64,000 bases of DNA from an uncultured Alphaproteobacteria bacterium (GTDB taxonomy: Bacteria; Pseudomonadota; Alphaproteobacteria; Rs-D84). Under the pieces are notes generated by a model that saw only the letters and a program-made list of their open reading frames with translations, made no database searches and was not told the DNA's origin. The position numbers and the translations under genes were made by a program. Positions 9,308-30,307 of this stretch are shown in pieces. The DNA lies in assembly GCA_951801825.1 (NCBI GenBank), contig CATOOF010000001.1, forward strand, positions 200,936-264,935, written 5' to 3'. Each line of letters opens with the position of its first letter. Position 1 is the first letter of the stretch.

Positions 9308-9327
9308 TTCTACCGCCCGGTTTATGC

Positions 9328-11314: not shown

Positions 11315-11353
11315 CCGCCGTTTTTTCAGGCGGGCGATTTTTTTGTCGGCCGA

Positions 11354-11785: not shown

Positions 11786-11798
11786 TTCATATTCCTTT

Positions 11799-12767
11799 TT
11801 AATTCGTCTCACATTCAACTATATCATAATTGCGGGGGTCGCTGAACAGTTTTTTCAAAACAACGTTGTTCATTGCATGACTGCCCTTGTACGATTCCAA
11901 CCGTCCCGCAATCATCCCCCCGGACGTCGCCATGTCACCGACCGCATCTATAATTTTGTGACGCACAAACTCGTCGGGCCATATCAGCGCATTCAGTGTT
12001 CCATCCCCTGCATCGTTTAGCGCAATTACATTCGTTTCATCCGCGCCGCGCCCCATTCCGCGGGCTTTTAAATATTCCCATTCCGAATATTTTCCAAACG
12101 TGCGGGCACGTGCAATGTTTCCGATAAAATCAGCCACGGATTGTTTTGAACCATCAAACTTGTATTCATATGTTTGTCTGCCGATTATCTTTTCGCGATA
12201 AACCAGCGTGGCAGAAATATCCAGCGCCCCGCCGTCATTTGGCACCAGCTTTACATATCCGTCACTGCGCCGGCCCGACATCAAATCATAAAACCACAGT
12301 TTTATGCGCAACCCCAATGGCAACATCCGCCGAACATCACGCGCCAATGCAACAACAGGCCGCCGCACAACAATTTTTTTCATTTTTCCCGGCGTCACGC
12401 CCGCCCCGCGAAAAGCATCAATAAACACGGCCGCACTGCCGTCCAGTATTGGTGTTTCCTGACCGTTGATTTCTATAATCGCACTATCTATGCCGGAAAT
12501 AAACAATGCCGCCATCAAATGCTCTATTGTCTGAACATGGGCGCCGCCGGGCATGCCAATTGTGGTATTGCGCATCTTTGTATCGCCAACGTTATCAAAA
12601 CGCGCCTCTATCAGTTCGCTGTTGGGTATATCAATGCGATGGAAAAATATACCTTTCCGGTCGAACGGACGAACCACAATTTTTACCGCGGCGCCCGAAT
12701 GTATCCCGCGCCCGGACAATACTACTTCTTTCTTTAACGTCGGCATGCCAGTTTCTCCTTTAGCCAA
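11799..12767 (-). CDS. lpxC: UDP-3-O-acyl-N-acetylglucosamine deacetylase
   Basis: LpxC signature regions GRGIHSG and GDMATSGG...SHAMNN. The real start is probably MPTLKK, a little inside the ORF. Confidence 0.85.
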   Translation of the reverse strand: MAKGETGMPTLKKEVVLSGRGIHSGAAVKIVVRPFDRKGIFFHRIDIPNSELIEARFDNVGDTKMRNTTIGMPGGAHVQTIEHLMAALFISGIDSAIIEINGQETPILDGSAAVFIDAFRGAGVTPGKMKKIVVRRPVVALARDVRRMLPLGLRIKLWFYDLMSGRRSDGYVKLVPNDGGALDISATLVYREKIIGRQTYEYKFDGSKQSVADFIGNIARARTFGKYSEWEYLKARGMGRGADETNVIALNDAGDGTLNALIWPDEFVRHKIIDAVGDMATSGGMIAGRLESYKGSHAMNNVVLKKLFSDPRNYDIVECETN

Positions 12768-14679: not shown

Positions 14680-14756
<77 letters not shown>

Positions 14757-14898
14757 AGATTTTCCGCAGAATTCTGCGGATTTTTTATTACTCTCCCCAC
14801 CATCAAATTTTCCCGTTTGCTATGTATTTGCTATGGATGGCATTTGCGACCATTAACGATTTCCGTTGAATATTAAGGATAATAGTATAGGCTAAATC

Positions 14899-15645
14899 AT
14901 GTCTTCAAAGGAGATTTGTATGAATTATACAGAATGGGTTGATATTAAGCCACTGAAAAAATGCACGTTGCAACAGGCATGTGAATTTGCCGCCTTTAAT
15001 TGGGAACCGGTGGACGACTTTACCGACAAGACACTGAAAAGACCATCCGACCGAACAAGCGCAAATGAACGCAACGACACAATTTGGCAAAACAAAATGA
15101 AAACAGCCGAAGACAAGATAACATATTTCCTTAGAGCTAATAAACTGATTGCCTCCGGCAAGGTCAAAACCAAACGGATTGAAAAAATTGACCTGTCAAC
15201 TGACTGTGTTATTAACATTGAAAACAATGCAATAACAGACGACGCACACACATACACGGACATAGAACTTGATTTCTATGAACTGCAAAGCATACTAAAA
15301 CACCCACTGTCACGAATGCACTTTACATTGTCGCTGGAAAACGACTGTATTTTCTTAACCATTGATGATAACGCTGTAAAAATACTCGTCAAACGCCTGC
15401 AGGCCACAGCCAAAAACACCAGCATCATCAGAAATATTATGAACAACCCGAACAAACTGATTACACGCGACGAATTTGCAAACATTGACAAGTACGATAG
15501 AATTGACCAAATACTTGACAGCTGCTTACCAAGTGACATTTATCATCTGTTTTTTGATTGCACATCAAATTCGGCACTTTTTAACCCAAACGCATCCGAT
15601 ATAGATTTACAAAAACACGGCATAAAAACACTGACAGTCGTATAA
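14899..15645 (+). CDS. Hypothetical protein (island cargo, 248 aa)
   Basis: AT-rich ORF followed by a rho-independent terminator at about 15664-15713. Confidence 0.4.
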   Translation: MSSKEICMNYTEWVDIKPLKKCTLQQACEFAAFNWEPVDDFTDKTLKRPSDRTSANERNDTIWQNKMKTAEDKITYFLRANKLIASGKVKTKRIEKIDLSTDCVINIENNAITDDAHTYTDIELDFYELQSILKHPLSRMHFTLSLENDCIFLTIDDNAVKILVKRLQATAKNTSIIRNIMNNPNKLITRDEFANIDKYDRIDQILDSCLPSDIYHLFFDCTSNSALFNPNASDIDLQKHGIKTLTVV

Positions 15646-15799
15646 AAGCGTCATCATTTCCATAAAAAAACGCACCCAAATTCATAACAAAGGGTGCTTT
15701 TTTTATGCAAAGAAAAAGACACATACACCTTTCGTCTTTTCCTCAGTATTTTCAATCAGCATAAGGTATCATAACATTATAAAACCAAAAGGTTATACT

Positions 15800-16009
15800 A
15801 TGAATGAAATTAAACTCCAACTACTTGACCAAAAGATGGCGGCGACCTATCTGGGAACAACCGTCGCCAGTATGAACACATTGCGCGCCCAGAACAAGTT
15901 GAACATCCCGTTTGTTCGCTTTGGACGTCGCATTAAATACAAACGCGAAGACCTTGACGCATGGATTGCACAAAATCGCGTTGTACCAACAACAGACACC
16001 AACTTCTAA
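15800..16009 (+). CDS. AlpA/excisionase-family helix-turn-helix DNA-binding protein
   Basis: 69 aa. The pattern YLG...S....L......P.V.FG.R..Y...DLD.WI is typical of the AlpA/Xis phage regulatory family. Confidence 0.6.
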   Translation: MNEIKLQLLDQKMAATYLGTTVASMNTLRAQNKLNIPFVRFGRRIKYKREDLDAWIAQNRVVPTTDTNF

Positions 16010-16132
16010 CCTTTCGTTTATGACGCTGAACTGTGCTTTACATGGCTATTTACCAGCGCATAGACCAAACACAAAACCACAACTGCCATAAATACATGCG
16101 CAGTTAAAGTAACCATTAGGGAACAGATAATC

Positions 16133-16951
16133 ATGAAGGATAGAAAGGAGATAATTGAATGGATAAATAACCAAATCAACACAGAAACGTTATTCTTGTC
16201 GGTTCATTTTGATACGCCACCAACAACCAAAGAAGAAATTTGCGCCCGTTGCCGACCGATATTCAAACACCTGTTCAGAAGTCTTGTCGGTCGTCATTGG
16301 CTTAAAGCATACAACCGTTATTTCACTGTCATAGGCTTTCAGGAATACGGTAAATACGGAAACATGCACGCACATTTCTTGCTTGTATGCCGGACAAAGT
16401 TTAACGCCACAACGGTATTAAAACGCTTAATAACCCTGTCCGACATTATAAAAATGGATGTATGGCAATCCGAAACCGACAAAGCCACACAAAACAAACG
16501 ATATTCAAATGACATTGTTATAAAACAGACATATTCCAGCGATGTCATCAACTATACAACCAAAGAGATACGCATCTTTAATCAACGCATCAGCGACACC
16601 CTGATTCTTGATGTAGATTTGTTTAACAAGACAACCATAGGAGAAAACGACATGTCAAATTCTCATCCGAACACCAGCGGCCTGACCCCGTTCAACAAGA
16701 TGGACGCTGACGAACGCCGTAAAATACAGAGCGCGGGTGGCATCGCCCGTTCAGAGAAAGCCCGACAGTTAAAAAGTATGACTGAAATAATCAACGGCCT
16801 GCGCATAGCATCAGATACCGACCCAATAGAATCCGCCGTTTCCAATCTGTATTTCAGTTTGATTGACCCGACAGTATCCGTCAATGAACGACTGCGTATA
16901 CTTACCACCCTTTACAAGATAATCGGGACAGAAAAAACAAAACCGGAATGA
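16133..16951 (+). CDS. Rolling-circle replication initiator, HUH endonuclease superfamily (putative)
   Basis: Motif 2 is HUHUUU (NMHAHFLLV). Motif 3 is YxxK (VINYTTKEI). A motif-1-like TLFLSVHF lies upstream. Confidence 0.55.
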   Translation: MKDRKEIIEWINNQINTETLFLSVHFDTPPTTKEEICARCRPIFKHLFRSLVGRHWLKAYNRYFTVIGFQEYGKYGNMHAHFLLVCRTKFNATTVLKRLITLSDIIKMDVWQSETDKATQNKRYSNDIVIKQTYSSDVINYTTKEIRIFNQRISDTLILDVDLFNKTTIGENDMSNSHPNTSGLTPFNKMDADERRKIQSAGGIARSEKARQLKSMTEIINGLRIASDTDPIESAVSNLYFSLIDPTVSVNERLRILTTLYKIIGTEKTKPE

Positions 16952-17097
16952 CCTACTGCACAGGCGAACGACAGAGCATAACAACATCCGATTTACAGGG
17001 CAATGACAGGGCATATCAGCCCTGTTTTTATACTTTTACGCTCGCCAACAAAAACATCTTTTCACTGCACAATCACTGCTGACTGGCACACCACACC

Positions 17098-17469
17098 TTA
17101 TTTAATCACATCATCCTTTTTTGTTTTGTTGTCACATATAAAGCAATCACTGACTCGCATTTGGCACAAATCCCACTGCAAATTCATTTCGTCATATTTC
17201 TTCTTAACTGTCGCACTTGGATTTTGCATGGCTATCAAGAAAAGGTCACTTCTTTCCTTATAAAAATCTATGGCAGATTGATTTGACACAAAACCGTACT
17301 TACTACACTTAATATCTTTTTTATATTCTTTTAAACACTCGCAAAATTCTACGTTTTCCTTTTTTGTGCGAACAGGCATACAATTATCATACAAAAACAA
17401 TCCAACACACCCGACAACAGCAATCCCAAAAATTACCAACAATACTTTCAATACCTTTTTGACATTCAT
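17098..17469 (-). CDS. Small Cys-rich membrane-anchored or secreted protein (123 aa)
   Basis: N-terminal hydrophobic segment and 8 Cys residues. AT-rich island cargo. Confidence 0.4.
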   Translation of the reverse strand: MNVKKVLKVLLVIFGIAVVGCVGLFLYDNCMPVRTKKENVEFCECLKEYKKDIKCSKYGFVSNQSAIDFYKERSDLFLIAMQNPSATVKKKYDEMNLQWDLCQMRVSDCFICDNKTKKDDVIK

Positions 17470-17490
17470 TTTGTTCTCCCTTGTTTCAAA

Positions 17491-17937
17491 TTAAAAACAC
17501 TTATCAAATTGTGAATTCGTTATATACGCGTCATATTGTGATGAATGTTCTTCATCATAGTAGATAGGCGAAAACATACATTCTCGTTTTACACATTCCG
17601 ACGCTCTGTGCGCCCATCCCCAACAATCCGAATGGCCATCATATACACAGCGGTCATAAAGACGATTCCCGTAACCGGTCGCAAACCAACCAATCCCATC
17701 CAAATAATCAATATAGTCTTCGCACTTTATGCGCGCCTTTTCCCACTTCTCTTTCTTTTCCCTTTCAACCCGTGCGGCTTGGCGTTGTTGTTCCTTATAT
17801 TCCTCCTGAATAGACTTTACTCGCGTTATACACGCATAATTTAACACATGGCATTCATATTTTTCTTCGCCGACTGTGTACACTTGTGAACACCCGCCAA
17901 CAAGCATCATCGCAACCAAAATAACCATTTTTCGCAT
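17491..17937 (-). CDS. Cys-rich lipoprotein (148 aa from MRKM)
   Basis: Lipobox MRKMVILVAMMLVGGCS. 10 Cys in the mature part. Coiled-coil-like segment rich in E/K/R. Confidence 0.4.
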   Translation of the reverse strand: MRKMVILVAMMLVGGCSQVYTVGEEKYECHVLNYACITRVKSIQEEYKEQQRQAARVEREKKEKWEKARIKCEDYIDYLDGIGWFATGYGNRLYDRCVYDGHSDCWGWAHRASECVKRECMFSPIYYDEEHSSQYDAYITNSQFDKCF

Positions 17938-18241
17938 AATAACACACCACCTTTTGTTTACGCAAAAGATGGTGCGGGGAATTAAAGAAATCACTATACA
18001 GATGACCCCGATAGCTTTCGGATATAATCCTGTTTTATGGCTACCGGTTCCCCGCTTTCCCAGCGGGGATATGAAATTTATGGTGCCATATCCCGGCACA
18101 CCCTGTATAGCGCGGTTCTTTACGCCACGGCATCCTCTGCGGATACAGTACTCAAAATACCCAAAAACGAGAAAAAAGTCAAATTATTAAAAACATCACG
18201 CTCTGATTTCTCATCATTATAACACTTCAGTTAATTAACAA

Positions 18242-19267
18242 TTGAAACAAATAAAATATGATATAAAATCAAGAAAAAGGATACCAATTATGAAAACAAC
18301 CAATGAAGCCGAAAATATGGCCAAAGCTTTATCCGTCACCGACATGTCTCTAGAAGAAGCAATGGTTAAACTTGGTAAAAAAACAGAACCCCCAAAAACC
18401 ATACCAACAGATTTTATTCAAGACGGCTGTTCGGAAGTGTCATTGTTTAAAAATCACCCTATTCGTAAAATATTCCACAAAAACGAATGGTTTTATTCAA
18501 TAGTGGACATTATAAGAGTTATCGTTGGGACAGACAGACCTAGAAAATACTGGGGAGACCTAAAAGATAAACTATTGAACACAGAAGGTTTTTTTGACAT
18601 TTCCGACAAAATCAACAAACTCAAAATGGTTTCTTCTGATGGAAAAAAATACCCAACTGAAGCCGCTGATGCCGAAACCATCTTCCGTATAATACAATCA
18701 ATTCCAAGCCCAAATGCCGAACCATTTAAACGGTGGTTTGCAAGGGTTGCATATGAACGAATACAAGAAATTCAGAATCCTGAAGTCGGTGCCAGAAGGA
18801 TAATGATGCTTTATAAAGCAAAAGGGTATTCAGACGAATGGATTGCCAATCGTATAAAGACTATTGCCGCGCGTAAAGAATTGACCGACGAATGGCAAAG
18901 ACGAGGCATAACAAGTGCAGGCGAATTCGCAATCTTAACAAACATTATTAATAAAGAAACTTTTGATAAGAATGTACAAGACCATAAAACTCTCAAAGGT
19001 TTGAGTAAAACAGATGATTTACGCGACCACATGACACCTATTGAACTTGCTTTGACAATGCTTGCAGAAACAACAACTAAAGAATTCGCGAAAAGTATGA
19101 ATGCCCAAGGAATGAAATCAAATGCCGACGCCGCCAAAAAAGGAGGCGAAGTAGGAAAAGCGGCTCGTATCAGTATAGAACGAAAACTAGGTAAATCAGT
19201 AGTATCCGAAACAAATTATTTAACTCCAAGACAAAAGCAAATGCGGATTGAAAATAAAAAGTCATAA
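18242..19267 (+). CDS. DinD-like / Bro-N domain protein (DNA-damage-inducible protein D family), paralog 1
   Basis: Shares long conserved blocks with the ORF at 21910-22734, for example WFYSIVDIIRVIVGTDRPRKYW, IQSIPSPNAEPFKRWFA and ARKELTDEW. Followed by a terminator at 19270-19298. Confidence 0.55.
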   Translation: MKQIKYDIKSRKRIPIMKTTNEAENMAKALSVTDMSLEEAMVKLGKKTEPPKTIPTDFIQDGCSEVSLFKNHPIRKIFHKNEWFYSIVDIIRVIVGTDRPRKYWGDLKDKLLNTEGFFDISDKINKLKMVSSDGKKYPTEAADAETIFRIIQSIPSPNAEPFKRWFARVAYERIQEIQNPEVGARRIMMLYKAKGYSDEWIANRIKTIAARKELTDEWQRRGITSAGEFAILTNIINKETFDKNVQDHKTLKGLSKTDDLRDHMTPIELALTMLAETTTKEFAKSMNAQGMKSNADAAKKGGEVGKAARISIERKLGKSVVSETNYLTPRQKQMRIENKKS

Positions 19268-19461
19268 ATATAAAACCGGTCATACGACCGGTTTTTATCA
19301 TTTTTCTTTTCTGACGCCTTTAAAAGGTCTTCCATCAGATTTAACATCCATAAATTGCCCTGTCGCACCATTTCGTTTAACATAGCAACCATTTGTCGGA
19401 TTAAAACATTGAGACCGTTCTCTAACAGCCCCTATTCTACGGTTGTCTCCATATGGATTAT

Positions 19462-19716
19462 TTACAGCCATCCCAAACCTCCTACTGTATTACAACAAGT
19501 TCCCTTCATACATTCACATCGATTTCCTGCTCGTACCAAAGCAAGTATTTTTATGGTTGATGTAAAAGGGTCTGGACTTTTATGATTTGAATTACCATAC
19601 GAACTGGTATTCACATGACACTGATGACATAATACCATCGCATTATCCAAACCATTACCACCATCCACTCTTTTGTGATGAACTTCTAAACCATACGTTC
19701 TTGCACATCTTGACAT
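19462..19716 (-). CDS. HNH endonuclease (small, 84 aa), possibly disrupted
   Basis: HNH core EVHHKRVDGGNGLDNAMVLCHQCH. A 57-aa ORF at 19301-19471 overlaps its 3' end in another frame. Confidence 0.55.
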   Translation of the reverse strand: MSRCARTYGLEVHHKRVDGGNGLDNAMVLCHQCHVNTSSYGNSNHKSPDPFTSTIKILALVRAGNRCECMKGTCCNTVGGLGWL

Positions 19717-20094
19717 GTTAATTCCTTTTTGTTGTCAAGGCGGCAATCATACCCAAGACAAAGTAATTGCCATATCTTCGGGACTTTGTTATAATGGGCT
19801 TGTTCTGGGGGCCCAGTTATAGGTATCCCATATGTAAGGATTGTGATAACATAAATCGCAATCCTTGCGTAAATTACAACATATAGTCATAATTTACATC
19901 CTATAACCACAACATATTGATTATCATTTCGATTCGCAACAGGAATAAACAAAATAAAGTTTATTTTTGTCTTTACTTTTAAAAATCGCAGAAAACTGCA
20001 CATTAGCGCCATAAACGAATCATTAAAATAATTTACTTAAATTAATTTGGTACATCATAATTGATATTAACTTATTCATATTTATAAATTTGAA

Positions 20095-21282
20095 TCAAGA
20101 TGACACTTTCCCCAACTCTAGCATCCGGTCAGTGGCTTTTTCCATAGCCGCACGAACGGGGTCGGCCGACAATCTGGCATAGACAAGAGTTGCGCTGGTT
20201 GATTTATGCCCCAGTGATTTGCCGATTATGTTTGTATTGGTACCGGTTATGGCCTCATAACTACCCATAGTACGTCGCAGGTCGTGCAGACGCAAGTTCT
20301 CTATTCCTGCCCTTGCCAGCAAATCCTGCCACGGTCTTTTCGGGTCTTCCAAATGGCCGCTTTTGCTCTTATTACTCGGTAAAACCCAGTCTGATTTCGC
20401 GTGCGGTTTGATTTTTTCAAACAATTCCCTTAATTGACTGGTTATCGGTACCTGCATAGGTTCACTGTTTTTGGTATCCGGCAGGTACATAAAACCGTTA
20501 TTCAAATCAATCTGCGACCAGCGCAAGGCCAGAATATTGCTACGACGCTGACCGGAAAAGAGTGAAATTATAACATAATTCTTAAAGACTTCGTTATTCT
20601 CCGCCCACAGCGCATTAAAAAATCGGCGAAATTCGTCGGATTGCAAGAACCTGTCACGGCTTTTTTCCGGGAATTTACGAATACCAGCGGCCGGGTTATT
20701 ATGACCCTTTACGTACCCATACTTCGCCGCAATTACGTACATATGCTTAATCAGGGACAATACACGGTTCGCCGTATACGGACTGTGCGTCTGTTTGGTC
20801 TGATTATGCAGTTTTTCCAGTTCGGATGTTTTGATACTAAGCAAGTACCGGTTATGAAAGTCCCCCAAACGATGTGTAAAGATACTGTCATCATTGGCGA
20901 CCGAACGGGGCTTTTTATGTACAAGCGAATATTCCGGCTTATAAACCGTTTCATAAAATTGTTTCAGCGTTATATCACGTAAGTTTTCACGACGTTTTTC
21001 CCCCGGATGCGTACCATTTTGTGATGCGTTTTCCGACTTTGTATGCGCCGCCGCACGTGCCGCCACCACCTTAAACTGTGGCCAGCGCCCTATTTTCGTT
21101 CGTACAGGCTTTTTCTCAAAGAACATATAATGATAAAAGGTCTTTGTCCCACCATACGTCACAATCAGCATCAAGCCGTCCTTTGACCCGGAATCGTAAT
21201 ATATGGCCTGCCCGTCCTCTTTGGCCGGAATCGGCAACGCCGCAATGCCCTTTTCTGTAAAATTGATGTGTTGTGCTTTCAT
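20095..21282 (-). CDS. int: Tyrosine-type site-specific integrase
   Basis: 395 aa. C-terminal catalytic region with the HDLRRT...GH...LVYARL pattern (R-H-R-Y). Lies inside the tRNA-bounded island. Confidence 0.85.
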   Translation of the reverse strand: MKAQHINFTEKGIAALPIPAKEDGQAIYYDSGSKDGLMLIVTYGGTKTFYHYMFFEKKPVRTKIGRWPQFKVVAARAAAHTKSENASQNGTHPGEKRRENLRDITLKQFYETVYKPEYSLVHKKPRSVANDDSIFTHRLGDFHNRYLLSIKTSELEKLHNQTKQTHSPYTANRVLSLIKHMYVIAAKYGYVKGHNNPAAGIRKFPEKSRDRFLQSDEFRRFFNALWAENNEVFKNYVIISLFSGQRRSNILALRWSQIDLNNGFMYLPDTKNSEPMQVPITSQLRELFEKIKPHAKSDWVLPSNKSKSGHLEDPKRPWQDLLARAGIENLRLHDLRRTMGSYEAITGTNTNIIGKSLGHKSTSATLVYARLSADPVRAAMEKATDRMLELGKVSS

Positions 21283-21283
21283 C

Positions 21284-21910
21284 TCAATCCCGTTCCCATT
21301 TGGCTACGTCATCCCAAATTCCAACTAAATCCATAAATTCCTTAAATAAAACACTCAGTTTATACGGATATATATCAGGGTTAAATGTTTCAAAAAATCC
21401 GGTTCCCAACAATGACAACAAAACAGCTGAACCTTTTGTTTTACTAACAGCTTTCTTTACAGCAAAAACATCTGCCGGCGCCAACTTTATAATTCCAAAA
21501 AGTTCACGATGTTGCTTTGATATAGCAATACTCGTCATTGGGTCTTTGTACGCTTTAACAATTTCCGCCAAAAATTGAATTTGCTCATAAGACAATTCAG
21601 AAAGTATTGTATTAAAATGATGAAATCGGGACGAAGACAACTGCTCTTTATTATTCATCCCAAGTATCAGCCTTGCCAAAAGACGAATATTATTCTTTCC
21701 GACCCCTTCATTAATATCATTTAATAATCTATAGACAATGGATAAAATATCATCTTGATTAACACGCGAAAAATCCCCATCACGCACTTCTTGCAAGATA
21801 ATCTCTTGCAGTTCTTTTTGTCTTCTTTGTAAAAAATGTTTGGCCATCTCTGTTGGCACGCCAATCAAAGAAGCCGCATCAGATATACAAGCAACCAATA
21901 AACCAGACAT
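21284..21910 (-). CDS. Hypothetical protein (208 aa) immediately upstream of int in the same operon
   Basis: Its stop abuts the int start. Overlaps the upstream DinD-like gene by 1 nt. Confidence 0.4.
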   Translation of the reverse strand: MSGLLVACISDAASLIGVPTEMAKHFLQRRQKELQEIILQEVRDGDFSRVNQDDILSIVYRLLNDINEGVGKNNIRLLARLILGMNNKEQLSSSRFHHFNTILSELSYEQIQFLAEIVKAYKDPMTSIAISKQHRELFGIIKLAPADVFAVKKAVSKTKGSAVLLSLLGTGFFETFNPDIYPYKLSVLFKEFMDLVGIWDDVAKWERD

Positions 21911-22734
21911 TACTCTTTATCAACCTTTGTTAGCAACTTTGCATTTTGACCCGTCACAACGGACTTCCCTGTTTCCTGTTCCAATGTCAACCGCGCCTGA
22001 CGTGCCACATTACCGCCACGCGATGCGACCTTCATAGTTTCCTTAAAACCCTGTGGATTTTCCTTTCTGGCGATTTCAGTTGTGGATAATTCCGCCAACA
22101 TATTCAAAACCAATTCAGCATTGCTCATATTGTCGCGTAAAGACTCCTTATACAGTCCCTTCATGCGCTTATAATCACGGGTTTTCATCCCAGACCATGC
22201 GCGCGTTATTTCATCCGTCAATAACGCATATTCCAATCCCTGCTTTACACCGGCCTTGTCCCATTCGTTTGTTAATTCCTTGCGGACTTCAATAGACTTT
22301 AAGCGTTGCGCCACCCATTCCGGCGAATGCCCCATACGTTGATAATAACGCAGGGCGCGTTGTATGGCGATTTCAGGGTCGGAGATTTCATCTATGCGCT
22401 GGCTACCAACACTGGCCAACCATAATTTAAAAGGTTCGGCCTTCTTAGACGGTATTGATTGAATAAGACGCAAAATCTGTTCAGTATCAGCAACATCAGT
22501 ACTATAAAATTTACCATCTGAAGATTTTAATTTCAGTTGTCCGATTTTTTCGGACAACTGACTACCTTCTTGATTTAACTGTTTTTTCAAATCACTCCAA
22601 TATTTACGAGGTCTGTCCGTACCGGTCAATGCCGCAATAACATCAACGACAGAAAAATACCACTTCTCAGCCTCTTCATCCCAAGTGGTTCTGATATTTT
22701 GGTTTTCAAACAGTTTTAAACTTGTATCCGCCAT
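21910..22734 (-). CDS. DinD-like / Bro-N domain protein, paralog 2
   Basis: 274 aa. N-terminal WYFSVVDVIAALTGTDRPRKYW. About 55-60% identical to paralog 1 over the core. Same size as E. coli DinD. Confidence 0.55.
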   Translation of the reverse strand: MADTSLKLFENQNIRTTWDEEAEKWYFSVVDVIAALTGTDRPRKYWSDLKKQLNQEGSQLSEKIGQLKLKSSDGKFYSTDVADTEQILRLIQSIPSKKAEPFKLWLASVGSQRIDEISDPEIAIQRALRYYQRMGHSPEWVAQRLKSIEVRKELTNEWDKAGVKQGLEYALLTDEITRAWSGMKTRDYKRMKGLYKESLRDNMSNAELVLNMLAELSTTEIARKENPQGFKETMKVASRGGNVARQARLTLEQETGKSVVTGQNAKLLTKVDKE

Positions 22735-25145: not shown

Positions 25146-25280
25146 TTATTTTTTCTTAAAGCCCTGCTTTGCCTTGAACTTAGGATTATCAGGGTCAATC
25201 AAGATGACTTGCTTGCCACGGCGAATTTGTTTGATGTTACCGCGCTTTTTCCAAGCCTTTAAAGAGCTTAAAAATTTCAT
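25146..25280 (-). CDS. rpmJ: 50S ribosomal protein bL36 (alphaproteobacterial type)
   Basis: 44-aa minus-strand ORF that is below the ORF track's length cut-off and that I translated myself: MKFLSSLKAWKKRGNIKQIRRGKQVILIDPDNPKFKAKQGFKKK. Matches the bL36 pattern. A hairpin terminator follows at 25087-25115. Confidence 0.7.
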   Translation of the reverse strand: MKFLSSLKAWKKRGNIKQIRRGKQVILIDPDNPKFKAKQGFKKK

Positions 25281-25367: not shown

Positions 25368-25552
25368 GTTGAAATTGTTGAAAAAAGTTGTTTTGTTTTT
25401 ATCAACAGGTTTTCAACAATAAAATGCCGGTTTTTCGGGTTATTTGTGTGAAGTTGTTAAAAACGGCCGGTGTTAAATTAACAGTTGAAAAAATCATGGT
25501 TATCAACGTTTTTAACATAAAAAGCCCAAATCTTTTTATACTTGTTGAAAAA
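25368..25552. repeat. Cluster of at least 7 GTTGAAA / TTGTTGAAAAA direct and inverted repeats between rpmJ and virB3
   Basis: Read directly from the sequence: gttgaaattgttgaaaaaagttg, ttttcaacaat, gttgttaaaaac, cagttgaaaaaatc, tatcaacg and cttgttgaaaaatg. Confidence 0.5.
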
Positions 25553-25570
25553 TGTCGAAATTGTTATAAT
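25542..25570 (+). promoter_or_regulatory. Putative sigma70 promoter for virB3: -35 TTGTTG, 17-bp spacer, extended -10 TGTTATAAT
   Basis: A spacing-correct hexamer pair. A GGAGA ribosome-binding site lies 8 nt before the ATG at 25595. Confidence 0.4.
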
Positions 25571-25594: not shown

Positions 25595-25891
25595 ATGAAA
25601 CAACAGGTTTTAAAGGCCTTGGCAAACCCGGCGCGCATATTTTATGTGCCGTATTCACTGGCTGTGATGAATTTCGTAATCCAGTTTTTGATATTCGTGA
25701 CGGTATTTACTGTCGTGATTGTTTTTACGCGCGGGAAAGTCGCAATAAATCCGATGTATTTTCTGTTGTCGCTGATCGGCGTTCACATGATTTTGGCCGT
25801 ATTTTCAAAACGGGAACCCCAGTTGGCACAAATAATTTCTGCCAAAATAAAATTATTAAAAGAAAAAATCCCGCGGAGGCTGGTTTCCTAA
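25595..25891 (+). CDS. virB3: Type IV secretion system protein VirB3
   Basis: 98 aa. N-terminal ALANPARIFYVPYSLAV (VirB3/TrbD signature) followed by two TM helices. Directly abuts virB4. Confidence 0.7.
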   Translation: MKQQVLKALANPARIFYVPYSLAVMNFVIQFLIFVTVFTVVIVFTRGKVAINPMYFLLSLIGVHMILAVFSKREPQLAQIISAKIKLLKEKIPRRLVS

Positions 25892-28309
25892 ATGAATAAT
25901 TTTTTCAACTATTTTGCCGGCGGTCAATTTCCCATGACGGTATTAATACTGGCGATGGCGGTAATTTTTGTGTTCATCGTTTTGATGATGTACATACCGG
26001 CGCTGTCCCGCCGTATTTTTCCCCAGTTCGGATACACGCATTATGCGCGTTATCTGCCGTTTAAAACAGTGTTCAGCGATAATTCGCTGGAACTTCGTGA
26101 CGGTGCGCTTACACGTGTTTGGCGTGTTGCGGGTATACAGACCGGCATCCAGGATGATGCGACGCGTGAAAAGTTTTTGGATTTGCGGTCATCGCTGTTC
26201 AACCAGATTCGCGAAGCGGGTGTCGTATTACGCTTTTTTACCGTACGTGATGCAAATCCAGAGCGTACGAATTACGAATTCTCGCAGCCTGTACTGCAAA
26301 AAATATATGACAAATGGCGCGGCCAGGGACTGCGTATTTATGAAAATAATTATTATATAATGCTGACGGTGCGGGGCAACGGTGCACGTGATAGACTGAA
26401 CCAGTACGGTAATTTGCTGGAATCTATTTTGGCCCCGTATAAGCCGACCGTGATGCGCAATGAAAGCCGTGAAAACATGGCGAAGTTTTTTGGGCGCATT
26501 CTGTCGCCAATAACAAAGCCCGAGCCGCTGACCTGTGATGGTGAAATTGCATCGGTTGCAACGGTTGATGATGTGGAATTTTTACCGGGCGGCCTGGTTC
26601 GCTATACCAGCGGTGATGCCCAGATGTTTGGTGCATTGTTATCGTTTAAGGCGTCTCCAGACTATCTGGACGAAGAATTTTATGACACCATTTCCACCAT
26701 ACAAACGGAAATGATATGCATGAATGCGGTTACCACGATGGGGGCGGCCGATGTTGACATTGCCCTGCGCCAGCGTCGCAACACCGCATCGGACGAAGAA
26801 GGCTCGGCCCATCAGCAGATTGCCCAGGCTGTCGGTGCGATGGATGAAAACATATCCGGCAATCAGAGTTTGGTTAATTACTATCCGTTGTTTATATTGT
26901 TTGGTGCAACCGAACAGGATGTTATGTCCAAAGTGGACGAGTTTAAGAAAATATCGGCTCAGTTTGGAATATCACCGGTTGTCGAAGATTTTGCATCAAA
27001 GGTTTCCTGGTTTGCACAAATTCCCGGGTTTGACGTTTTCCCGCGCAGTTTCAAGATGCTGTCAAAAACGGCGGCGGTAAGTATTCCGATGTCGTCGACA
27101 CCGCGTGGTGTTGCAAATTCCGACTGGGGTCCGGGCCCGCTGGTGGTGTTTCCCACGGCCCAGGGAACGCCCTATATGTTCCAGTTTCATGTGTCGGACA
27201 AGCCGGCGGCGGTTGCGCATACATTGACAATTGGTCCGACCGGCGGTGGTAAGACGACACTGTTCAGTTTTCTTATCGCCCAATCGTTGCGTTATCCCAA
27301 ATTAAAGGCGTTCTTTTTCGACCGCAACAAGGGTGCCGAGATATTTACACTGGCCGTTGGCGGGAAATATATAACCATGCAGGGCAAGGAAAAGAACACC
27401 GACCCGATGGAGCATACATTTCAAACGCATTTAAATCCGTTAAAAATGTCGGATACTGCGGCTAATCGTGCATTTTTGCGCAGATGGTTTGCAATTATTT
27501 CAAACCAGAACGACGCGTTTGCCGCCGACGAGATTGCCCGTGCTGTATCGGTTAATTTCGATTATCTGGCGCCGCGTGACCGTTTGCTTAAAAACCTGTG
27601 GGAAAGCTGTTTTTCATCATCGGGCAACATGCGCCCCGCGCTAAAGAAATGGATAGACCCCCTGCAGTACGGTCATATGTTTAACGAGGAATCTGACACG
27701 TTGGACCTGGCGTCGCGTCTGACGACGTTTGATTTCACAGAAATATTACAGGACGAGGTATTGGCCCCCGCGGTCATATCATATATCTTGCACAGAATAA
27801 ATACCACGACGGTTGCAGGTGGTAATCCGTCGTTAATCATGATTGACGAAACGGCGCCGATGCTTGAAAACAAAATGTTCCGCGAAAACTTTATCGCCGG
27901 CCTGCAGGAGGGACGTAAAAACCGCCAGGCATACATGGCGGCCTTCCAGCGTGCAAATGTTTTGGACAAGCTGGGGATTGGCGACGTCGTACGCGGCCAG
28001 GCCCAGACTGTTTTGTTCTTTCGCAATCCGGCGGCGGATGCAAACGATTACGCGCATTGGAATTTAAACCCGCTGGAAATGGCCTTTATCCAGGGCAAGG
28101 CGTATCCTAATTTAAAGCGTGCGGTATTGCTGTCGCGTCCGGTTACCGGCGAATCTGTTATTTTGAATACGGAACTGGGGGGGCTGGGCAATCTGTTGCG
28201 GCTGTTTGAATCGGGACGCTCTTCTGTATTACTGGCCGAAGAATTGTACAAGATGTACGGTACTAACTTTGTATCCGAATATCTAAAACGGCAAGGCGGC
28301 GATGTTTAG
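25892..28309 (+). CDS. virB4: Type IV secretion system ATPase VirB4
   Basis: 805 aa. Walker A TIGPTGGGKTT, Walker B IMIDE, and the N-terminal membrane-associated region typical of VirB4/TrbE. Confidence 0.85.
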   Translation: MNNFFNYFAGGQFPMTVLILAMAVIFVFIVLMMYIPALSRRIFPQFGYTHYARYLPFKTVFSDNSLELRDGALTRVWRVAGIQTGIQDDATREKFLDLRSSLFNQIREAGVVLRFFTVRDANPERTNYEFSQPVLQKIYDKWRGQGLRIYENNYYIMLTVRGNGARDRLNQYGNLLESILAPYKPTVMRNESRENMAKFFGRILSPITKPEPLTCDGEIASVATVDDVEFLPGGLVRYTSGDAQMFGALLSFKASPDYLDEEFYDTISTIQTEMICMNAVTTMGAADVDIALRQRRNTASDEEGSAHQQIAQAVGAMDENISGNQSLVNYYPLFILFGATEQDVMSKVDEFKKISAQFGISPVVEDFASKVSWFAQIPGFDVFPRSFKMLSKTAAVSIPMSSTPRGVANSDWGPGPLVVFPTAQGTPYMFQFHVSDKPAAVAHTLTIGPTGGGKTTLFSFLIAQSLRYPKLKAFFFDRNKGAEIFTLAVGGKYITMQGKEKNTDPMEHTFQTHLNPLKMSDTAANRAFLRRWFAIISNQNDAFAADEIARAVSVNFDYLAPRDRLLKNLWESCFSSSGNMRPALKKWIDPLQYGHMFNEESDTLDLASRLTTFDFTEILQDEVLAPAVISYILHRINTTTVAGGNPSLIMIDETAPMLENKMFRENFIAGLQEGRKNRQAYMAAFQRANVLDKLGIGDVVRGQAQTVLFFRNPAADANDYAHWNLNPLEMAFIQGKAYPNLKRAVLLSRPVTGESVILNTELGGLGNLLRLFESGRSSVLLAEELYKMYGTNFVSEYLKRQGGDV

Positions 28310-28919
28310 GTTTTTCGGAATCTGTTTACTGTTGTCCGTTTTTCCGGGTTTGGTTATTGCCGACCAGGACTGTATGTCGTACAAGGTTCGGCCACGGATA
28401 ACCGTTGCGACGCCCGCATGGACCAAACAGGTTGTTCAGCCGTTGCGTGAAATGGATTTGCTCCATGGCGACGTTATTGCAACATTGGTTGACAATTATG
28501 ACATAACAGGCGACGTAACAGGAATAGAGGACGGTTTTTGCGTGTCTTTGAAATCTGTTGCGGCAACTGTTGGTTATAACGATTTTCTGGTCCAGATAGA
28601 TATCCGTCATCGCCCCGACACATGTGCATACAATGCGGTTCTCTCGCACGAGGACCAGCATATTCGCGCATATCTGTCAATAATAGACGATTTTCAAACA
28701 GAACTGCACAACGCCATATATGCGGCGGCTGATTCAGTAATGCCTGTATTCGTCTCGGATGAAGAAGGCATAGACGGTGCGCTGGATTTGCTGAACCAAA
28801 AACTGCAGGAACATCCGGACGTTGTCTTGGTAAAACAGAAAATAAAGGCGGCCGAAGAAATACGAAACAAGAACGTGGATGCCGACGATGACGGCAGCCG
28901 CCTGAAACAATGCATGTAA
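28302..28919 (+). CDS. Secreted protein (205 aa) translationally coupled to virB4, occupying the VirB5/TrbJ position
   Basis: Signal peptide MFRFFGICLLLSVFPGLVIA. 5 Cys. Helical C-terminal half. The start overlaps the virB4 stop by 8 nt. Confidence 0.45.
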   Translation: MFRFFGICLLLSVFPGLVIADQDCMSYKVRPRITVATPAWTKQVVQPLREMDLLHGDVIATLVDNYDITGDVTGIEDGFCVSLKSVAATVGYNDFLVQIDIRHRPDTCAYNAVLSHEDQHIRAYLSIIDDFQTELHNAIYAAADSVMPVFVSDEEGIDGALDLLNQKLQEHPDVVLVKQKIKAAEEIRNKNVDADDDGSRLKQCM

Positions 28920-28971
28920 TGCCGGTTTTTTTATGGACTGGTGTTAAGAAAATATTCCTGTATCAGACGGG

Positions 28972-29640
28972 ATGGGGCAAATGAAAGACATATTAAAAAA
29001 GATTTTATTGTGGTTTTTCTCTGTTATAATTTGCGGCTGTTTGGTCGGTATTTTGGGTAACCGTGTATATTACGAGTATTTTGAAAAAACAAATTTGGCA
29101 TACGCCAAGGAAACATTCAGACTGGCCTACAAGGACAGTCAGCTGCGCAAAAATCTGAAAATAACAATCAACGGCAAAAACGTAAACGAATTATATATAA
29201 CGACTATATCGTTGGTAAACAACGGTAATGCAACGTTGTCGCGTCCTGATTTCAAGGCCGAAAGCGATCCGCTGCGTATAGAGGGCCGCCACATCGAAAG
29301 TGTTTTTGTTGATAAAATAAACACGACTGCGAATTCCCGCATTCGCCTGGTTAAGCGTCGCGGTGGCATGCGCATAAACTTCAAATGGATAAATCCGGGC
29401 GACAAAATAGTGTTAAAGGTTGTACACCAGCGGCCATCGGATAATATACGCATTCGCGGGTCTTTTCACGGAATATCACATATATCACGCCTGGATGATG
29501 ATTATAACAAGCTGGCCTATACGCGGCGTCATGTCGTGTGCACGGGTATTGTTTCGGTCATAGGAACAATTATGCTGATTGCGGCGGTAATTGGGGTATT
29601 GATGTTAATGCACCGCGTGCGAATTATTAAAACAAAGTAA
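28972..29640 (+). CDS. Membrane protein with N- and C-terminal TM helices flanking a soluble domain (222 aa)
   Basis: TM1 LLWFFSVIICGCLVGILG and TM2 VCTGIVSVIGTIMLIAAVIGVLMLM. Last gene of the virB3-virB4 operon. Confidence 0.4.
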   Translation: MGQMKDILKKILLWFFSVIICGCLVGILGNRVYYEYFEKTNLAYAKETFRLAYKDSQLRKNLKITINGKNVNELYITTISLVNNGNATLSRPDFKAESDPLRIEGRHIESVFVDKINTTANSRIRLVKRRGGMRINFKWINPGDKIVLKVVHQRPSDNIRIRGSFHGISHISRLDDDYNKLAYTRRHVVCTGIVSVIGTIMLIAAVIGVLMLMHRVRIIKTK

Positions 29641-30307
29641 AATTGTTAATAAATGCCTCGCGCAGGGCGCTGTTTACACCCGCGGTGTCCATTCCGCTCT
29701 CGCGCAGGTACTGCATTTGGTTTGGCGCCGGACGGTACAGTGATGCACTATGACCGGCTGTTTCCGGTACGGCGGATATATATTGTGACGGTTTGAATTC
29801 TATACGTGCGCCGTCATCTGCCATCGCGGAAAAAGAAATATCCGATATGCATTCGATGCAGTTTTTCTCTATAATTGCGGCCCCCGATAATTTGGATACG
29901 GATTTGGCCCCCGCCAACAAATTTGTCTGTATTAAAATACCGGTGTTTTCCGCACCGTGTTGCGCGTTGCAAACATATGTAATGTTATCGTTGTTTTCCA
30001 ATAATACATGACCACGGACAACGGAATTTTTCCCGGTGTTTTTGATAAAAATGTTTAAAAAAGCCGGTATTTTGTTTTTTACACGCACATCTAAAAACAC
30101 ATCCTGGTCTTCGGCGGAAATATTCAAATCCAGCCGGCATTCGCCGGCTATTTCGCCAACATATATTACATGTACCGGCAGATTGTGTTTTTTATCAATT
30201 ATATCGTCGTTTAATGTGGATAAATCGGGACAAAATTTGCCATCACGGTAAACAATGGTTTCCGCGGCAAAGGTTTTTATATTGAATTCATTCCACATGT
30301 ATGACAT
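29627..30307 (-). CDS. Short SufD/SufB-family Fe-S assembly protein homolog (C-terminal beta-helix core only)
   Basis: The C-terminal pattern NLLAGAKSVSKLSGAAIIEKNCIECISDISFSAMADDGARIEFKPSQ...HSASLYRP...QMQYLRESGMDTAGVNSALREAF matches the conserved SufB/SufD tail. No sufB or sufC adjacent. Confidence 0.45.
   Translation of the reverse strand: MSYMWNEFNIKTFAAETIVYRDGKFCPDLSTLNDDIIDKKHNLPVHVIYVGEIAGECRLDLNISAEDQDVFLDVRVKNKIPAFLNIFIKNTGKNSVVRGHVLLENNDNITYVCNAQHGAENTGILIQTNLLAGAKSVSKLSGAAIIEKNCIECISDISFSAMADDGARIEFKPSQYISAVPETAGHSASLYRPAPNQMQYLRESGMDTAGVNSALREAFINNFTLF

What the first reader, a model, noticed from the sequence alone, without database searches (positions are those of the whole stretch)
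25595..29640. Isolated virB3-virB4 operon with two coupled novel envelope proteins and no virB6
VirB3 and VirB4 are clear. Immediately downstream are a 205-aa signal-peptide protein, overlapping the virB4 stop by 8 nt and sitting at the position VirB5/TrbJ occupies in canonical operons, and a 222-aa protein with terminal TM helices. No VirB6, B7 or later genes follow; a SufD-like gene on the other strand comes next. Scattered rvh-type T4SS loci are known in Rickettsiales, but there virB6 copies follow virB4. These two proteins could be lineage-specific T4SS components or substrates.
Basis: partly seen in the sequence, partly recalled or inferred. Interest (0 to 1): 0.6.

Follow-up and report, generated by a model that had tools for sequence, protein, structure and literature searches.

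The report
Conserved VirB3-VirB4-metalloprotein module in Enterousia
A tiny-genome gut bacterium (Candidatus Enterousia) keeps, as strictly as its housekeeping genes, the motor genes virB3-virB4 of a type IV secretion system fused in an operon with an unnamed secreted HExxH protein, with the coupling ATPase virD4 encoded elsewhere and no other machine parts found in the roughly one fifth of the genome that could be examined.

Summary
virB3 (25595-25891), virB4 (25892-28309), a 205-aa signal-peptide protein (ORF3, 28302-28919, 8-nt overlap with virB4) and a 222-aa two-TM protein (ORF4, 28972-29640) lie in a housekeeping region of a Ca. Enterousia genome (order Rs-D84, about 0.7-1 Mb).

- **ORF3 is a fixed partner.** virB3-virB4-ORF3 is contiguous in all 80 species examined. 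VirB4 is 68-95% identical, as conserved as TopA, and its ATPase motifs are invariant.
- **ORF3 is not VirB5-like.** It belongs to an unnamed family of secreted proteins with invariant HExxH, an invariant Asp and four near-invariant cysteines. It has no Pfam, NCBIfam or PDB match. It is probably a periplasmic zinc hydrolase.
- **ORF4 is not a core part.** It occurs only in the five closest species, is a generic beta-sandwich, and is unrelated to VirB6 or VirB8.
- **A solitary virD4 exists elsewhere.** It is conserved in the lineage and has the same closest plasmid relatives as VirB4, so one ancestral conjugative-type T4SS was domesticated and dispersed.
- **No other parts were found.** VirB2, B5, B6, B8-B10 and a relaxase are absent from 2.7 Mb of related sequence, but that samples only about 20% of the gene content.

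Verdict: a new variant of a known kind, of moderate to high interest.

The parts
25541..25570 (+). Conserved promoter/operator-like element CTTGTTGAAAAATGTCGAAATTGTTATAAT, about 25 nt upstream of the virB3 ATG and ending in a perfect TATAAT
   Evidence: At least 90% conserved per position in 75 species. Unique in the window and absent from 80 virD4 loci. Function is inferred.
25595..25891 (+). virB3: small inner-membrane protein that anchors VirB4
   Evidence: Pfam VirB3 28.3 bits, above the 23.9 cut-off. HMM of the four closest plasmid operons recovers it in 83 loci at E about 1e-9. 45-92% identical across species. omega 0.05-0.16.
25892..28309 (+). virB4: T4SS ATPase with an N-terminal TM helix; Walker A GPTGGGKT (residues 448-455) and Walker B IMIDET (649-654)
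   Evidence: TIGR00929 E 3.6e-107 and Pfam CagE_TrbE_VirB. TrwK E 1.9e-32. 333 of 805 positions invariant in 78 species, with motifs 0.96-1.00 conserved. omega 0.03-0.05. Closest plasmid relatives are 32% identical and sit in complete MPF-T operons.
28302..28919 (+). ORF3: Sec-exported 205-aa protein of an unnamed family with HExxH (H116, E117, H120), D193 and four cysteines; translationally coupled to virB4; probable periplasmic zinc hydrolase
   Evidence: 8-nt overlap with virB4. Present directly after virB4 in all 80 species. 755 homologues and 433 clusters at 50% identity. Invariant residues. AF2 pLDDT 88.9. No Pfam, NCBIfam or PDB match. omega 0.05-0.08.
28972..29640 (+). ORF4: 222-aa (or 219-aa from 28981) bitopic membrane protein with a beta-sandwich between two TM helices; a recent addition in one sub-clade, not part of the conserved module
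   Evidence: Only 24 homologues in 5.8 billion proteins. Present only in L007-L011. omega 0.03-0.09. Model pLDDT 74. Only generic beta-sandwich matches. hhalign against VirB8 and VirB6 below 1%.
25146..25280 (-). rpmJ (ribosomal protein L36, 44 aa): divergent upstream neighbour that moves with virB3 as one syntenic block
   Evidence: Translation and conservation in every species inspected.

Best explanation
The locus is the conserved inner-membrane energy module of a chromosomally fixed, dispersed type IV secretion system in Candidatus Enterousia.

Shown:
- virB3-virB4-ORF3 is one tightly packed three-gene unit with its own conserved upstream element.
- It is inherited vertically with housekeeping genes and is under purifying selection as strong as on YchF and TopA.
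- The VirB4 ATPase motifs are intact.
- A solitary virD4 coupling-protein gene is conserved elsewhere in the same genomes. It has the same closest plasmid relatives as VirB4, so both descend from one alphaproteobacterial MPF-T conjugative system.

Inferred:
- VirB3 anchors VirB4 hexamers in the inner membrane. VirB4 ATP hydrolysis drives assembly or translocation. VirD4 feeds substrates.
- ORF3 is exported by Sec, stapled by two disulfides and binds a metal through H116, H120 and D193, with E117 as the catalytic base.
- ORF3 acts in the periplasm as the machine's dedicated hydrolase, most likely remodelling cell wall (a VirB1-type role) or processing a machine subunit.
- ORF3 was recruited from a wider family of standalone secreted HExxH proteins.
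- ORF4 is a later, sub-clade-specific membrane protein at an inversion breakpoint and is not a core part.
For: - Block conservation and identities in 80 species.
- Junctions of 0-10 nt and -8 to +10 nt.
- Invariant Walker motifs; 333 of 805 positions invariant.
- omega 0.03-0.16.
- Conserved upstream element.
- virD4 with T4SS-DNA_transf 173 bits in L008 and L009, and in 90 metagenome loci at 60-88% identity.
- The same top plasmid relatives for VirB4 and VirD4, each a complete operon.
- ORF3 family invariants G56, C108, H116, E117, H120 and D193, with C24, C80 and C204 at 90% or more.
- Confident model with a beta-sheet, then an HExxH helix, then a helical subdomain.
- One family member is fused to Sel1 plus PG_binding_1.
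- Weak DUF922 and eCIS_core hits fall on the HExxH helix.
- ORF3 is tandemly duplicated after virB4 in L093.
- Precedents: peptidase and lysozyme genes just downstream of virB4 are essential in a Patescibacterium, and T4CP genes are usually far from virB4 (PMC12102498). VirB1 analogues carry varied hydrolase domains, including LytM (PMC12857230).
Against: - No channel or outer-membrane components (VirB2, B5, B6, B7-B10) and no VirB11 were found, so it is not shown that a complete machine exists.
- Only about 20% of the gene families of a genome were sampled.
- The ORF3 model has no structural neighbour among solved zincins. Pfam links are below threshold. Model coordinates could not be inspected, so metal-site geometry is untested.
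- Distant family members are not next to T4SS genes, so the family does not need a T4SS to function.
- One distant member has HExxQ.
Confidence: 0.55

Rival explanations
1. Minimal co-opted machine. Enterousia has truly lost the outer-membrane core, pilus and VirB6/B8 parts. VirB3-VirB4, VirD4 and ORF3 work as a stripped-down inner-membrane and periplasmic device, perhaps together with the type IVb pilus, to exchange DNA, nucleotides or proteins with a partner cell. This would be convergent with the chromosomal T4SS of Patescibacteria.
For: - No VirB2, B5, B6, B8, B9, B10 or relaxase in 2.68 Mb with HMMs that do recover the short VirB3.
- virB4 is never followed by virB6 and virD4 is never preceded by virB8-11, unlike Rickettsiales (PMC1366493).
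- Genomes of 0.7-1 Mb without respiration or standard transporters, with a suggested partner-dependent lifestyle (PMC12306168).
- A type IVb-pilus-like cluster in the window.
- The Patescibacteria parallel.
Against: - About 80% of the gene content was not examined.
- A diderm (lpxC, lpxK, BamB-like and TolC-like genes) needs some route across the outer membrane.
- No known T4SS works without a VirB6-like channel protein.
Confidence: 0.2
2. Operon hitch-hiker. ORF3 is an ordinary periplasmic housekeeping enzyme with no functional tie to VirB4, co-transcribed only for convenience. ORF4 is likewise unrelated.
For: - Distant ORF3-family members are standalone genes in other bacteria, near LPS or unrelated genes.
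- ORF4 is clade-restricted.
- Compact genomes pack unrelated genes into operons.
Against: - ORF3 stays directly after virB4, with junctions of about 10 nt or less, in all 80 species despite frequent rearrangement of everything around the block.
- The duplicated paralogue also stays there.
Confidence: 0.15
3. ORF3 is a divergent VirB5/TrbJ-type pilus-tip or stalk subunit, and ORF4 is a VirB8- or VirB6-type channel subunit.
For: - ORF3 occupies the VirB5 position and has a signal peptide and long helices.
- ORF4 is a membrane protein.
Against: - ORF3 has a four-stranded sheet and an invariant HExxH. hhalign against VirB5-position proteins of the closest operons gives 0.1%.
- No VirB5 or TraC structure appears among the Foldseek hits.
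- ORF4 is a beta-sandwich with two TM helices, gives below 1% against VirB8 and VirB6, and is absent from 75 of 80 species.
Confidence: 0.05
4. Decaying remnant of an integrated conjugative element with no present function.
For: Most T4SS genes are missing at the locus. A strain-variable integrated element lies 3 kb upstream.
Against: - Full-length genes in every species and invariant catalytic motifs.
- omega of 0.16 or less.
- Conservation equal to TopA.
- The block is outside the variable element and is present in strains that lack it.
Confidence: 0.03

Closest known systems
Rickettsiales vir homologue (rvh) type IV secretion system
   Same: A chromosomal, vertically inherited P-type T4SS in reduced alphaproteobacterial genomes. 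Its genes are split between loci, and virB3-virB4 head one locus. It lacks virB1, virB5 and virB7 (PMC1366493).
   Different: In rvh, virB6 and three or four extra virB6 copies follow virB4, and virD4 ends a virB8-9-10-11 cluster. Here ORF3 follows virB4 and virD4 is solitary. The closest sequence relatives of Enterousia VirB4 and VirD4 in the collections searched are plasmid systems of free-living Alphaproteobacteria. Rickettsial sequences could not be compared directly.
Chromosomal T4SS of Patescibacteria/CPR (e.g. Ca. Southlakia epibionticum)
   Same: Tiny genomes with a partner-dependent lifestyle and a relaxase-less chromosomal T4SS. The T4CP is usually far from virB4. Peptidase and lysozyme genes immediately downstream of virB4 are essential. 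Type IV pili are also present (PMC12102498).
   Different: That system derives from monoderm MPF-FATA conjugation machinery and keeps VirB6- and VirB8-like parts near virB4. Enterousia is a diderm and its VirB4 and VirD4 derive from an MPF-T lineage. No experimental data exist.
MPF-T conjugative operons of Erythrobacter aureus, Microvirga sp. VF16, Sphingosinicella sp. BN140058 and Azospirillum argentinense plasmids
   Same: These hold the nearest homologues of both VirB4 (about 32%) and VirD4 (about 30-32%). The order virB3-virB4 is the same.
   Different: They are plasmid-borne with a MobA/MobL relaxase and a full VirB2-B11/D4 set. None has an ORF3 homologue after virB4. The VirB5-position proteins are unrelated to ORF3.
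VirB1-type T4SS peptidoglycan hydrolases, and DUF922 (recalled from memory as COG5661, predicted secreted Zn protease)
   Same: ORF3 is a periplasmic accessory enzyme candidate encoded within a T4SS operon. It has an HExxH motif, and one relative is fused to a peptidoglycan-binding domain. Weak DUF922 matches fall on the HExxH helix.
   Different: VirB1 proteins are lytic transglycosylases (SLT), not HExxH proteins (PMC12857230). DUF922 scores are below Pfam's cut-off (17 bits or less against 27), and RefSeq labels homologues only as 'hypothetical'. No activity is known.

Membership tests
VirB4/CagE/TrbE T4SS ATPase | Family HMM match above the curated threshold | tested here: met
   Pfam CagE_TrbE_VirB 33.2 bits against a cut-off of 21, and precomputed VirB4_TrbE_N. 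TIGR00929 gives E 3.6e-107 but 359 bits, below NCBI's cut-off of 643, so this is a divergent member.
VirB4/CagE/TrbE T4SS ATPase | Walker A and Walker B NTPase motifs in the C-terminal domain | tested here: met
   GPTGGGKT (448-455) and IMIDET (649-654), 0.99-1.00 conserved in 78 species.
VirB3 | Small (about 100 aa) membrane protein encoded immediately upstream of virB4, with a family HMM match | tested here: met
   98 aa, Pfam VirB3 28.3 bits against 23.9. The stop codon abuts the virB4 start. Recovered by a custom HMM of four reference operons.
Rickettsiales rvh-type split T4SS | virB6 (plus extra virB6 paralogues) contiguous with virB3-virB4 | tested here: not met
   No VirB6-like ORF follows virB4 in any of 80 species.
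Rickettsiales rvh-type split T4SS | Second locus virB8-virB9-virB10-virB11-virD4 | tested here: not met
   virD4 is preceded by a divergent rsmE in 72 of 80 loci. No VirB8-11 lie within 10 kb.
Complete diderm (MPF-T) T4SS | Presence of VirB6, VirB8, VirB9, VirB10 (and usually VirB2, VirB11) somewhere in the genome | tested here: inconclusive
   None was found in 2.68 Mb of lineage sequence. That sequence covers only about 150-210 recurrent gene families out of about 850-900 per genome (gene counts from PMC12306168).
VirB5/TraC/TrbJ | All-alpha elongated helical bundle with a globular appendage, and sequence or profile similarity | tested here: not met
   The ORF3 model contains four beta-strands, including a 40-residue hairpin. 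hhalign probability is 0.1%. No VirB5 structure appears among the Foldseek hits. No Pfam hit.
Zincin-type metallopeptidase (ORF3) | HExxH motif on a helix that follows a beta-sheet | tested here: met
   H116, E117 and H120 are invariant in 49 Enterousia sequences and in the 32-member family-wide set. They lie on helix 108-145, after strands 32-98.
Zincin-type metallopeptidase (ORF3) | Third metal ligand and overall zincin fold | tested here: inconclusive
Pfam DUF922 | Score above the gathering threshold (27 bits) | tested here: not met
   The best score is 17.4 bits in a distant member. ORF3 itself has no hit.
VirB8 / VirB6 (ORF4) | VirB8: one N-terminal TM helix plus an NTF2-like domain. VirB6: polytopic, with five or more TM helices. 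| tested here: not met
   ORF4 has two TM helices flanking a beta-sandwich. Foldseek returns only generic beta-sandwiches. hhalign gives below 1%.
VirD4 type IV coupling protein (second locus, outside the window) | T4SS-DNA_transf / TraG-D_C / TrwB domains with an N-terminal TM region | tested here: met
   L008 16314-18563: 173, 69 and 61 bits, all above their cut-offs. Hydrophobic N-terminal segments are visible in the sequence.

The most novel reading that the evidence does not exclude
Enterousia, and probably the whole Rs-D84 order, may have reduced a conjugative MPF-T system to an essential minimal device: VirB3, VirB4, VirD4 and a recruited periplasmic HExxH enzyme, with no canonical channel or outer-membrane core. 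The device would serve a partner-dependent lifestyle. That would be a diderm, alphaproteobacterial counterpart of the Patescibacteria T4SS, and the ORF3 family would be a new class of T4SS-associated metallohydrolase.
Probability: 0.2. Interest if true: 0.8.

Novelty: new variant of a known kind. Interest (0 to 1): 0.6.

Why it matters
Enterousia and the rest of Rs-D84 are common gut bacteria of humans, livestock and termites. Their genomes are below 1 Mb, they have no respiration and no standard transporters, and no one knows how they obtain what they need (PMC12306168).

A T4SS ATPase module kept as strictly as TopA and YchF in such genomes is likely central to their biology. No paper in the library that mentions Enterousia or Rs-D84 refers to type IV secretion.

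The finding does three things:
- It gives a concrete, testable candidate for the cell-cell interaction machinery of this lineage.
- It provides a second, independent case beside Patescibacteria of a domesticated, relaxase-less T4SS in reduced genomes.
- It defines an unnamed family of secreted HExxH proteins (433 clusters at 50% identity), which also occurs in cultivable Methylorubrum, Rhizobium and Variovorax, where its biochemistry could be studied.

Tried and rejected
- **PDB sequence searches.** Profiles of ORF3 and of the wider family gave only noise.
- **Reference proteins.** ORF3 against VirB5-position proteins and ORF4 against VirB8/VirB6 of the closest operons showed no relationship.
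- **Shared operator.** The conserved virB3 upstream element was sought upstream of virD4 and elsewhere. It is unique, so no regulon can be traced.
- **Partners of virD4.** The 393-aa lipoprotein and LpoB downstream are ordinary envelope genes. The ORFs after virD4 in L008 and L009 are antisense artefacts of pnp.
- **Gap between virD4 and topA in L131.** Housekeeping genes only.
- **Terminator between ORF3 and ORF4.** A T7 run is present but there is no significant hairpin (z 0.32), so co-transcription is unresolved.
- **SufD-like gene as part of the module.** Rejected. It stays with ychF when the rpmJ-virB3-virB4-ORF3 block is inverted.
- **DUF922 membership.** Below threshold.
- **Profile search for distant ORF3 relatives.** It returned only 5 proteins because of the candidate cap.
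- **Rfam.** Only three tRNAs in the window.
- **Rest of the genome.** Walking further along the source contig was not possible with the permitted look-ups.

Full report
**1. What is in the sequence**

| Gene | Coordinates | Length |
|---|---|---|
| virB3 | 25595-25891 | 98 aa |
| virB4 | 25892-28309 | 805 aa |
| ORF3 | 28302-28919 | 205 aa |
| ORF4 | 28972-29640 | 222 aa (219 aa from 28981 in most gene calls) |

VirB3 passes Pfam's threshold, at 28.3 bits against 23.9. VirB4 matches CagE_TrbE_VirB above threshold. It also matches TIGR00929 at E 3.6e-107, although that score (359 bits) is below NCBI's curated 643. Its nearest solved relative is TrwK of R388, at E 1.9e-32.

The virB3 stop abuts the virB4 ATG, with a GGAGG 12 nt upstream. 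virB4 and ORF3 overlap by 8 nt. ORF4 begins 52-61 nt after ORF3. A T-run lies in that gap, but it does not form a significant hairpin. A weak SufD-like gene, below Pfam's cut-off, converges on ORF4.

**2. Source and surroundings**

Exact look-ups place the window on contig CAPYVX010000001.1 (591 kb) of GCA_948743385.1. Relatives are MAGs named Candidatus Enterousia, uncultured Alphaproteobacteria or uncultured Rickettsiales, from human, chicken, horse, ruminant and mouse guts. They include a closed 958,618-bp chromosome.

The literature describes Enterousia (order Rs-D84) as having genomes of 0.7-1.0 Mb, without a TCA cycle, respiration or standard transporters, and possibly a partner-dependent lifestyle (PMC12306168). 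No paper in the library that mentions Enterousia or Rs-D84 refers to type IV secretion.

Around the locus there are only housekeeping genes: a lipocalin-like gene, an ABC-F gene, rpmJ, ychF, dnaG, topA, rodA, a PBP2 gene, mreCD, pheST and others. There is also a type IVb-pilus-like cluster and a strain-variable integrated element.

**3. Conservation of the block**

A scan of one genome per species with the ORF3 profile returned 129 loci, of which 80 were kept. tblastn of the window's genes against these loci shows virB3-virB4-ORF3 contiguous in every locus where the contig allows.

| Protein | Identity to the window |
|---|---|
| VirB4 | 68-95% |
| TopA | 67-89% |
| DnaG | 59-87% |
| YchF | 81-96% |
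| ORF3 | 57-81% |
| VirB3 | 45-92% |

- The virB3-virB4 junction is 0-10 nt. The virB4-ORF3 junction is mostly -8 to +10 nt.
- In VirB4, 333 of 805 positions are invariant in 78 species, and the Walker A and B motifs are essentially invariant.
- Rough dN/dS against close relatives is 0.03-0.05 for VirB4, 0.05-0.08 for ORF3, 0.03-0.09 for ORF4 and 0.05-0.16 for VirB3. dS is saturated, so these are approximate.
- A 30-nt element ending in TATAAT just upstream of virB3 is at least 90% conserved in 75 species. It is unique in the window.
- rpmJ is always the divergent upstream neighbour.
- In most species the order is topA, dnaG, ychF(-), SufD-like(+), rpmJ(-), virB3, virB4, ORF3. The window's clade carries an inversion of the rpmJ-to-ORF3 block. 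The SufD-like gene stays with ychF, so it is not part of the module.

**4. ORF4**

ORF4 has only 24 homologues in 5.8 billion proteins. It is found in only the five closest species. In the other 75 species, the gene after ORF3 is an unrelated housekeeping gene, for example a sugar-nucleotide gene, the lipocalin-like gene or the ABC-F gene.

Its model (pLDDT 74) is a beta-sandwich between two TM helices. The model matches only generic sandwiches. It shows no relationship to VirB8 or VirB6 of the closest complete operons.

ORF4 is a real gene under purifying selection. It is a recent addition in one sub-clade, sitting at the inversion breakpoint, and not a conserved T4SS part.

**5. ORF3**

ORF3 has 755 homologues, none of them named. 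The Enterousia sequences share:
- an A-x-A type signal peptide;
- four invariant cysteines (C24, C80, C108, C204);
- an invariant H116-E117-D-x-H120-I-R motif.

An exhaustive profile search finds 433 clusters at 50% identity. The distant members are secreted proteins of about 230 aa from Alphaproteobacteria and other Proteobacteria. They keep the cysteines, HExxH and an Asp corresponding to D193.

The distant members are standalone genes, not next to T4SS genes. They also occur in cultured Methylorubrum extorquens AM1, Microvirga, Rhizobium and Variovorax, always annotated as hypothetical. One member is fused to Sel1 and a peptidoglycan-binding domain.

In at least one relative, a divergent paralogue and a canonical ORF3 both follow virB4.

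The AlphaFold model is confident (pLDDT 88.9, pTM 0.78). It shows a four-stranded sheet with a long hairpin, then a long helix carrying HExxH, then a helical subdomain that ends near D193.

Searches for relatives of ORF3 gave:
- no neighbour in PDB or BFVD by Foldseek;
- no Pfam or NCBIfam family for ORF3;
- no sequence relative in PDB;
- sub-threshold DUF922 and eCIS_core hits on the HExxH helix in a few distant members, which is a lead only;
- no similarity to the VirB5-position proteins of the closest operons.

I therefore read ORF3 as a Sec-exported, disulfide-stapled, metal-binding protein, most likely a zinc hydrolase. It was recruited into the virB operon of this lineage. The hydrolase function is inferred, not shown.

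**6. The rest of the secretion system**

The best plasmid matches to VirB4 are about 32% identical with E about 1e-120. They are complete MPF-T conjugative operons with a MobA/MobL relaxase, on plasmids of Erythrobacter aureus, Microvirga sp. VF16 and Sphingosinicella. An Azospirillum plasmid comes next.

Using their proteins as queries, I found a VirD4 coupling protein in two close relatives, about 6 kb from ORF3 and among housekeeping genes. A metagenome scan found it in 90 loci at 60-88% identity, including contigs with the same sample prefixes as others that carry termite-gut-type relatives.

virD4 is always solitary. A divergent rsmE lies upstream in 72 of 80 loci. Downstream is either pnp or ordinary lipoproteins, including LpoB.

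VirD4 has the same top plasmid relatives as VirB4. This argues that both descend from one ancestral system that was domesticated and then dispersed.

HMMs built from the four reference operons recover the short, divergent VirB3 in 83 loci, which serves as a positive control. They find no VirB2, VirB5-position protein, VirB6, VirB8, VirB9, VirB10 or relaxase in 31,060 six-frame segments of 2.68 Mb. The VirB11 hits are only the pilus T2SSE ATPase.

The caveat is important. These loci sample only about 150-210 recurrent gene families, roughly one fifth of a genome. Genome-wide absence is therefore not shown.

**7. Comparison with known systems**

- **Rickettsiales rvh.** It shares the chromosomal, split, vertically inherited character. 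There, however, virB6 copies follow virB4 and virD4 ends a virB8-11 cluster (PMC1366493). Enterousia differs at both loci.
- **Patescibacteria.** This is the closest conceptual parallel: a relaxase-less chromosomal T4SS in tiny, partner-dependent genomes. The T4CP is usually far from virB4, and peptidase and lysozyme genes just downstream of virB4 are essential in Ca. Southlakia (PMC12102498). That system derives from monoderm machinery, whereas this one derives from a diderm MPF-T lineage.
- **VirB1 analogues.** They are known to carry varied hydrolase domains, including LytM (PMC12857230). A metallohydrolase as a T4SS accessory therefore has precedent, though not of this family.

**8. Verdict**

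The real feature is a three-gene module, virB3-virB4-ORF3, with a conserved upstream element. It is kept as strictly as core housekeeping genes across a whole lineage of reduced-genome gut Alphaproteobacteria. A solitary virD4 of the same ancestry is encoded elsewhere.

ORF3 founds an unnamed HExxH family. ORF4 is a recent passenger.

Whether a full channel exists elsewhere in the genome is the decisive open question. It can be settled by scanning the closed genomes.

Noticed in passing
window 14680-22734: A strain-variable integrated element lies next to tRNA-Met (14680-14756). It carries an integrase (20095-21282, minus strand), a Bro-N protein (21910-22734, minus strand), an HTH_17 gene and several unannotated ORFs. 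It is absent from contigs L003 and L006, which carry the identical VirB4 and where DUF374-lpxK-lpxC directly precede the lipocalin gene.
   Followed up: partly
window 6609-11818: An R64-type (type IVb) pilus-like cluster: PAP_PilO (9977-11314, minus strand), a 219-aa ORF, a T2SSE ATPase (7679-9307, minus strand) and T2SSF (6609-7682, minus strand). Pfam recognises no secretin or pilin nearby. The published survey of Rs-D84 genomes credits type IV pili only to UBA9783, not to Enterousia.
   Followed up: partly
window 25541-25570: A 30-nt element upstream of virB3 is at least 90% conserved in 75 species, far more than the neighbouring intergenic DNA. It is unique in the window and absent upstream of virD4. 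It could be a promoter plus operator for an unknown regulator.
   Followed up: yes
window 29627-30307 (minus strand): A truncated SufD-like protein (226 aa; SUFBD_core 24.9 bits, below the cut-off) is always paired divergently with ychF. It evolves faster than its neighbours (omega 0.16-0.24; 46-69% identity). No sufB, sufC or sufS was seen nearby.
   Followed up: partly
L008 16314-18563; L009 15655-17853; L097-L176: A solitary virD4 coupling-protein gene is conserved across the lineage. Its N-terminal region is unusually long and hydrophobic, about 130-190 residues that align poorly with plasmid VirD4s.
   Followed up: partly
L090 14940-17050 (minus strand): On the contig of a distant ORF3-family member, from another small-genome bacterium, a 146-aa ORF with a weak CagX/VirB9 hit is followed by four unannotated small ORFs next to gyrA. 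This may be another scattered T4SS.
   Followed up: no
L093 113-1381: ORF3 is tandemly duplicated after virB4 in one relative: a divergent paralogue (P0189, 214 aa) followed by a canonical ORF3 (206 aa).
   Followed up: partly
L087 17836-19795 (just beyond the window's start): An EcoRI-type methylase gene is followed by a PLDc_2 nuclease-like gene. This may be a restriction-modification or defence pair.
   Followed up: no
L049 (OZ246409.1): A 716,531-bp 'chromosome' is labelled uncultured Muribaculaceae in its record title. It carries the Enterousia-type virB3-virB4-ORF3 block with the usual alphaproteobacterial synteny, so the label is probably a taxonomic mis-assignment.
   Followed up: no
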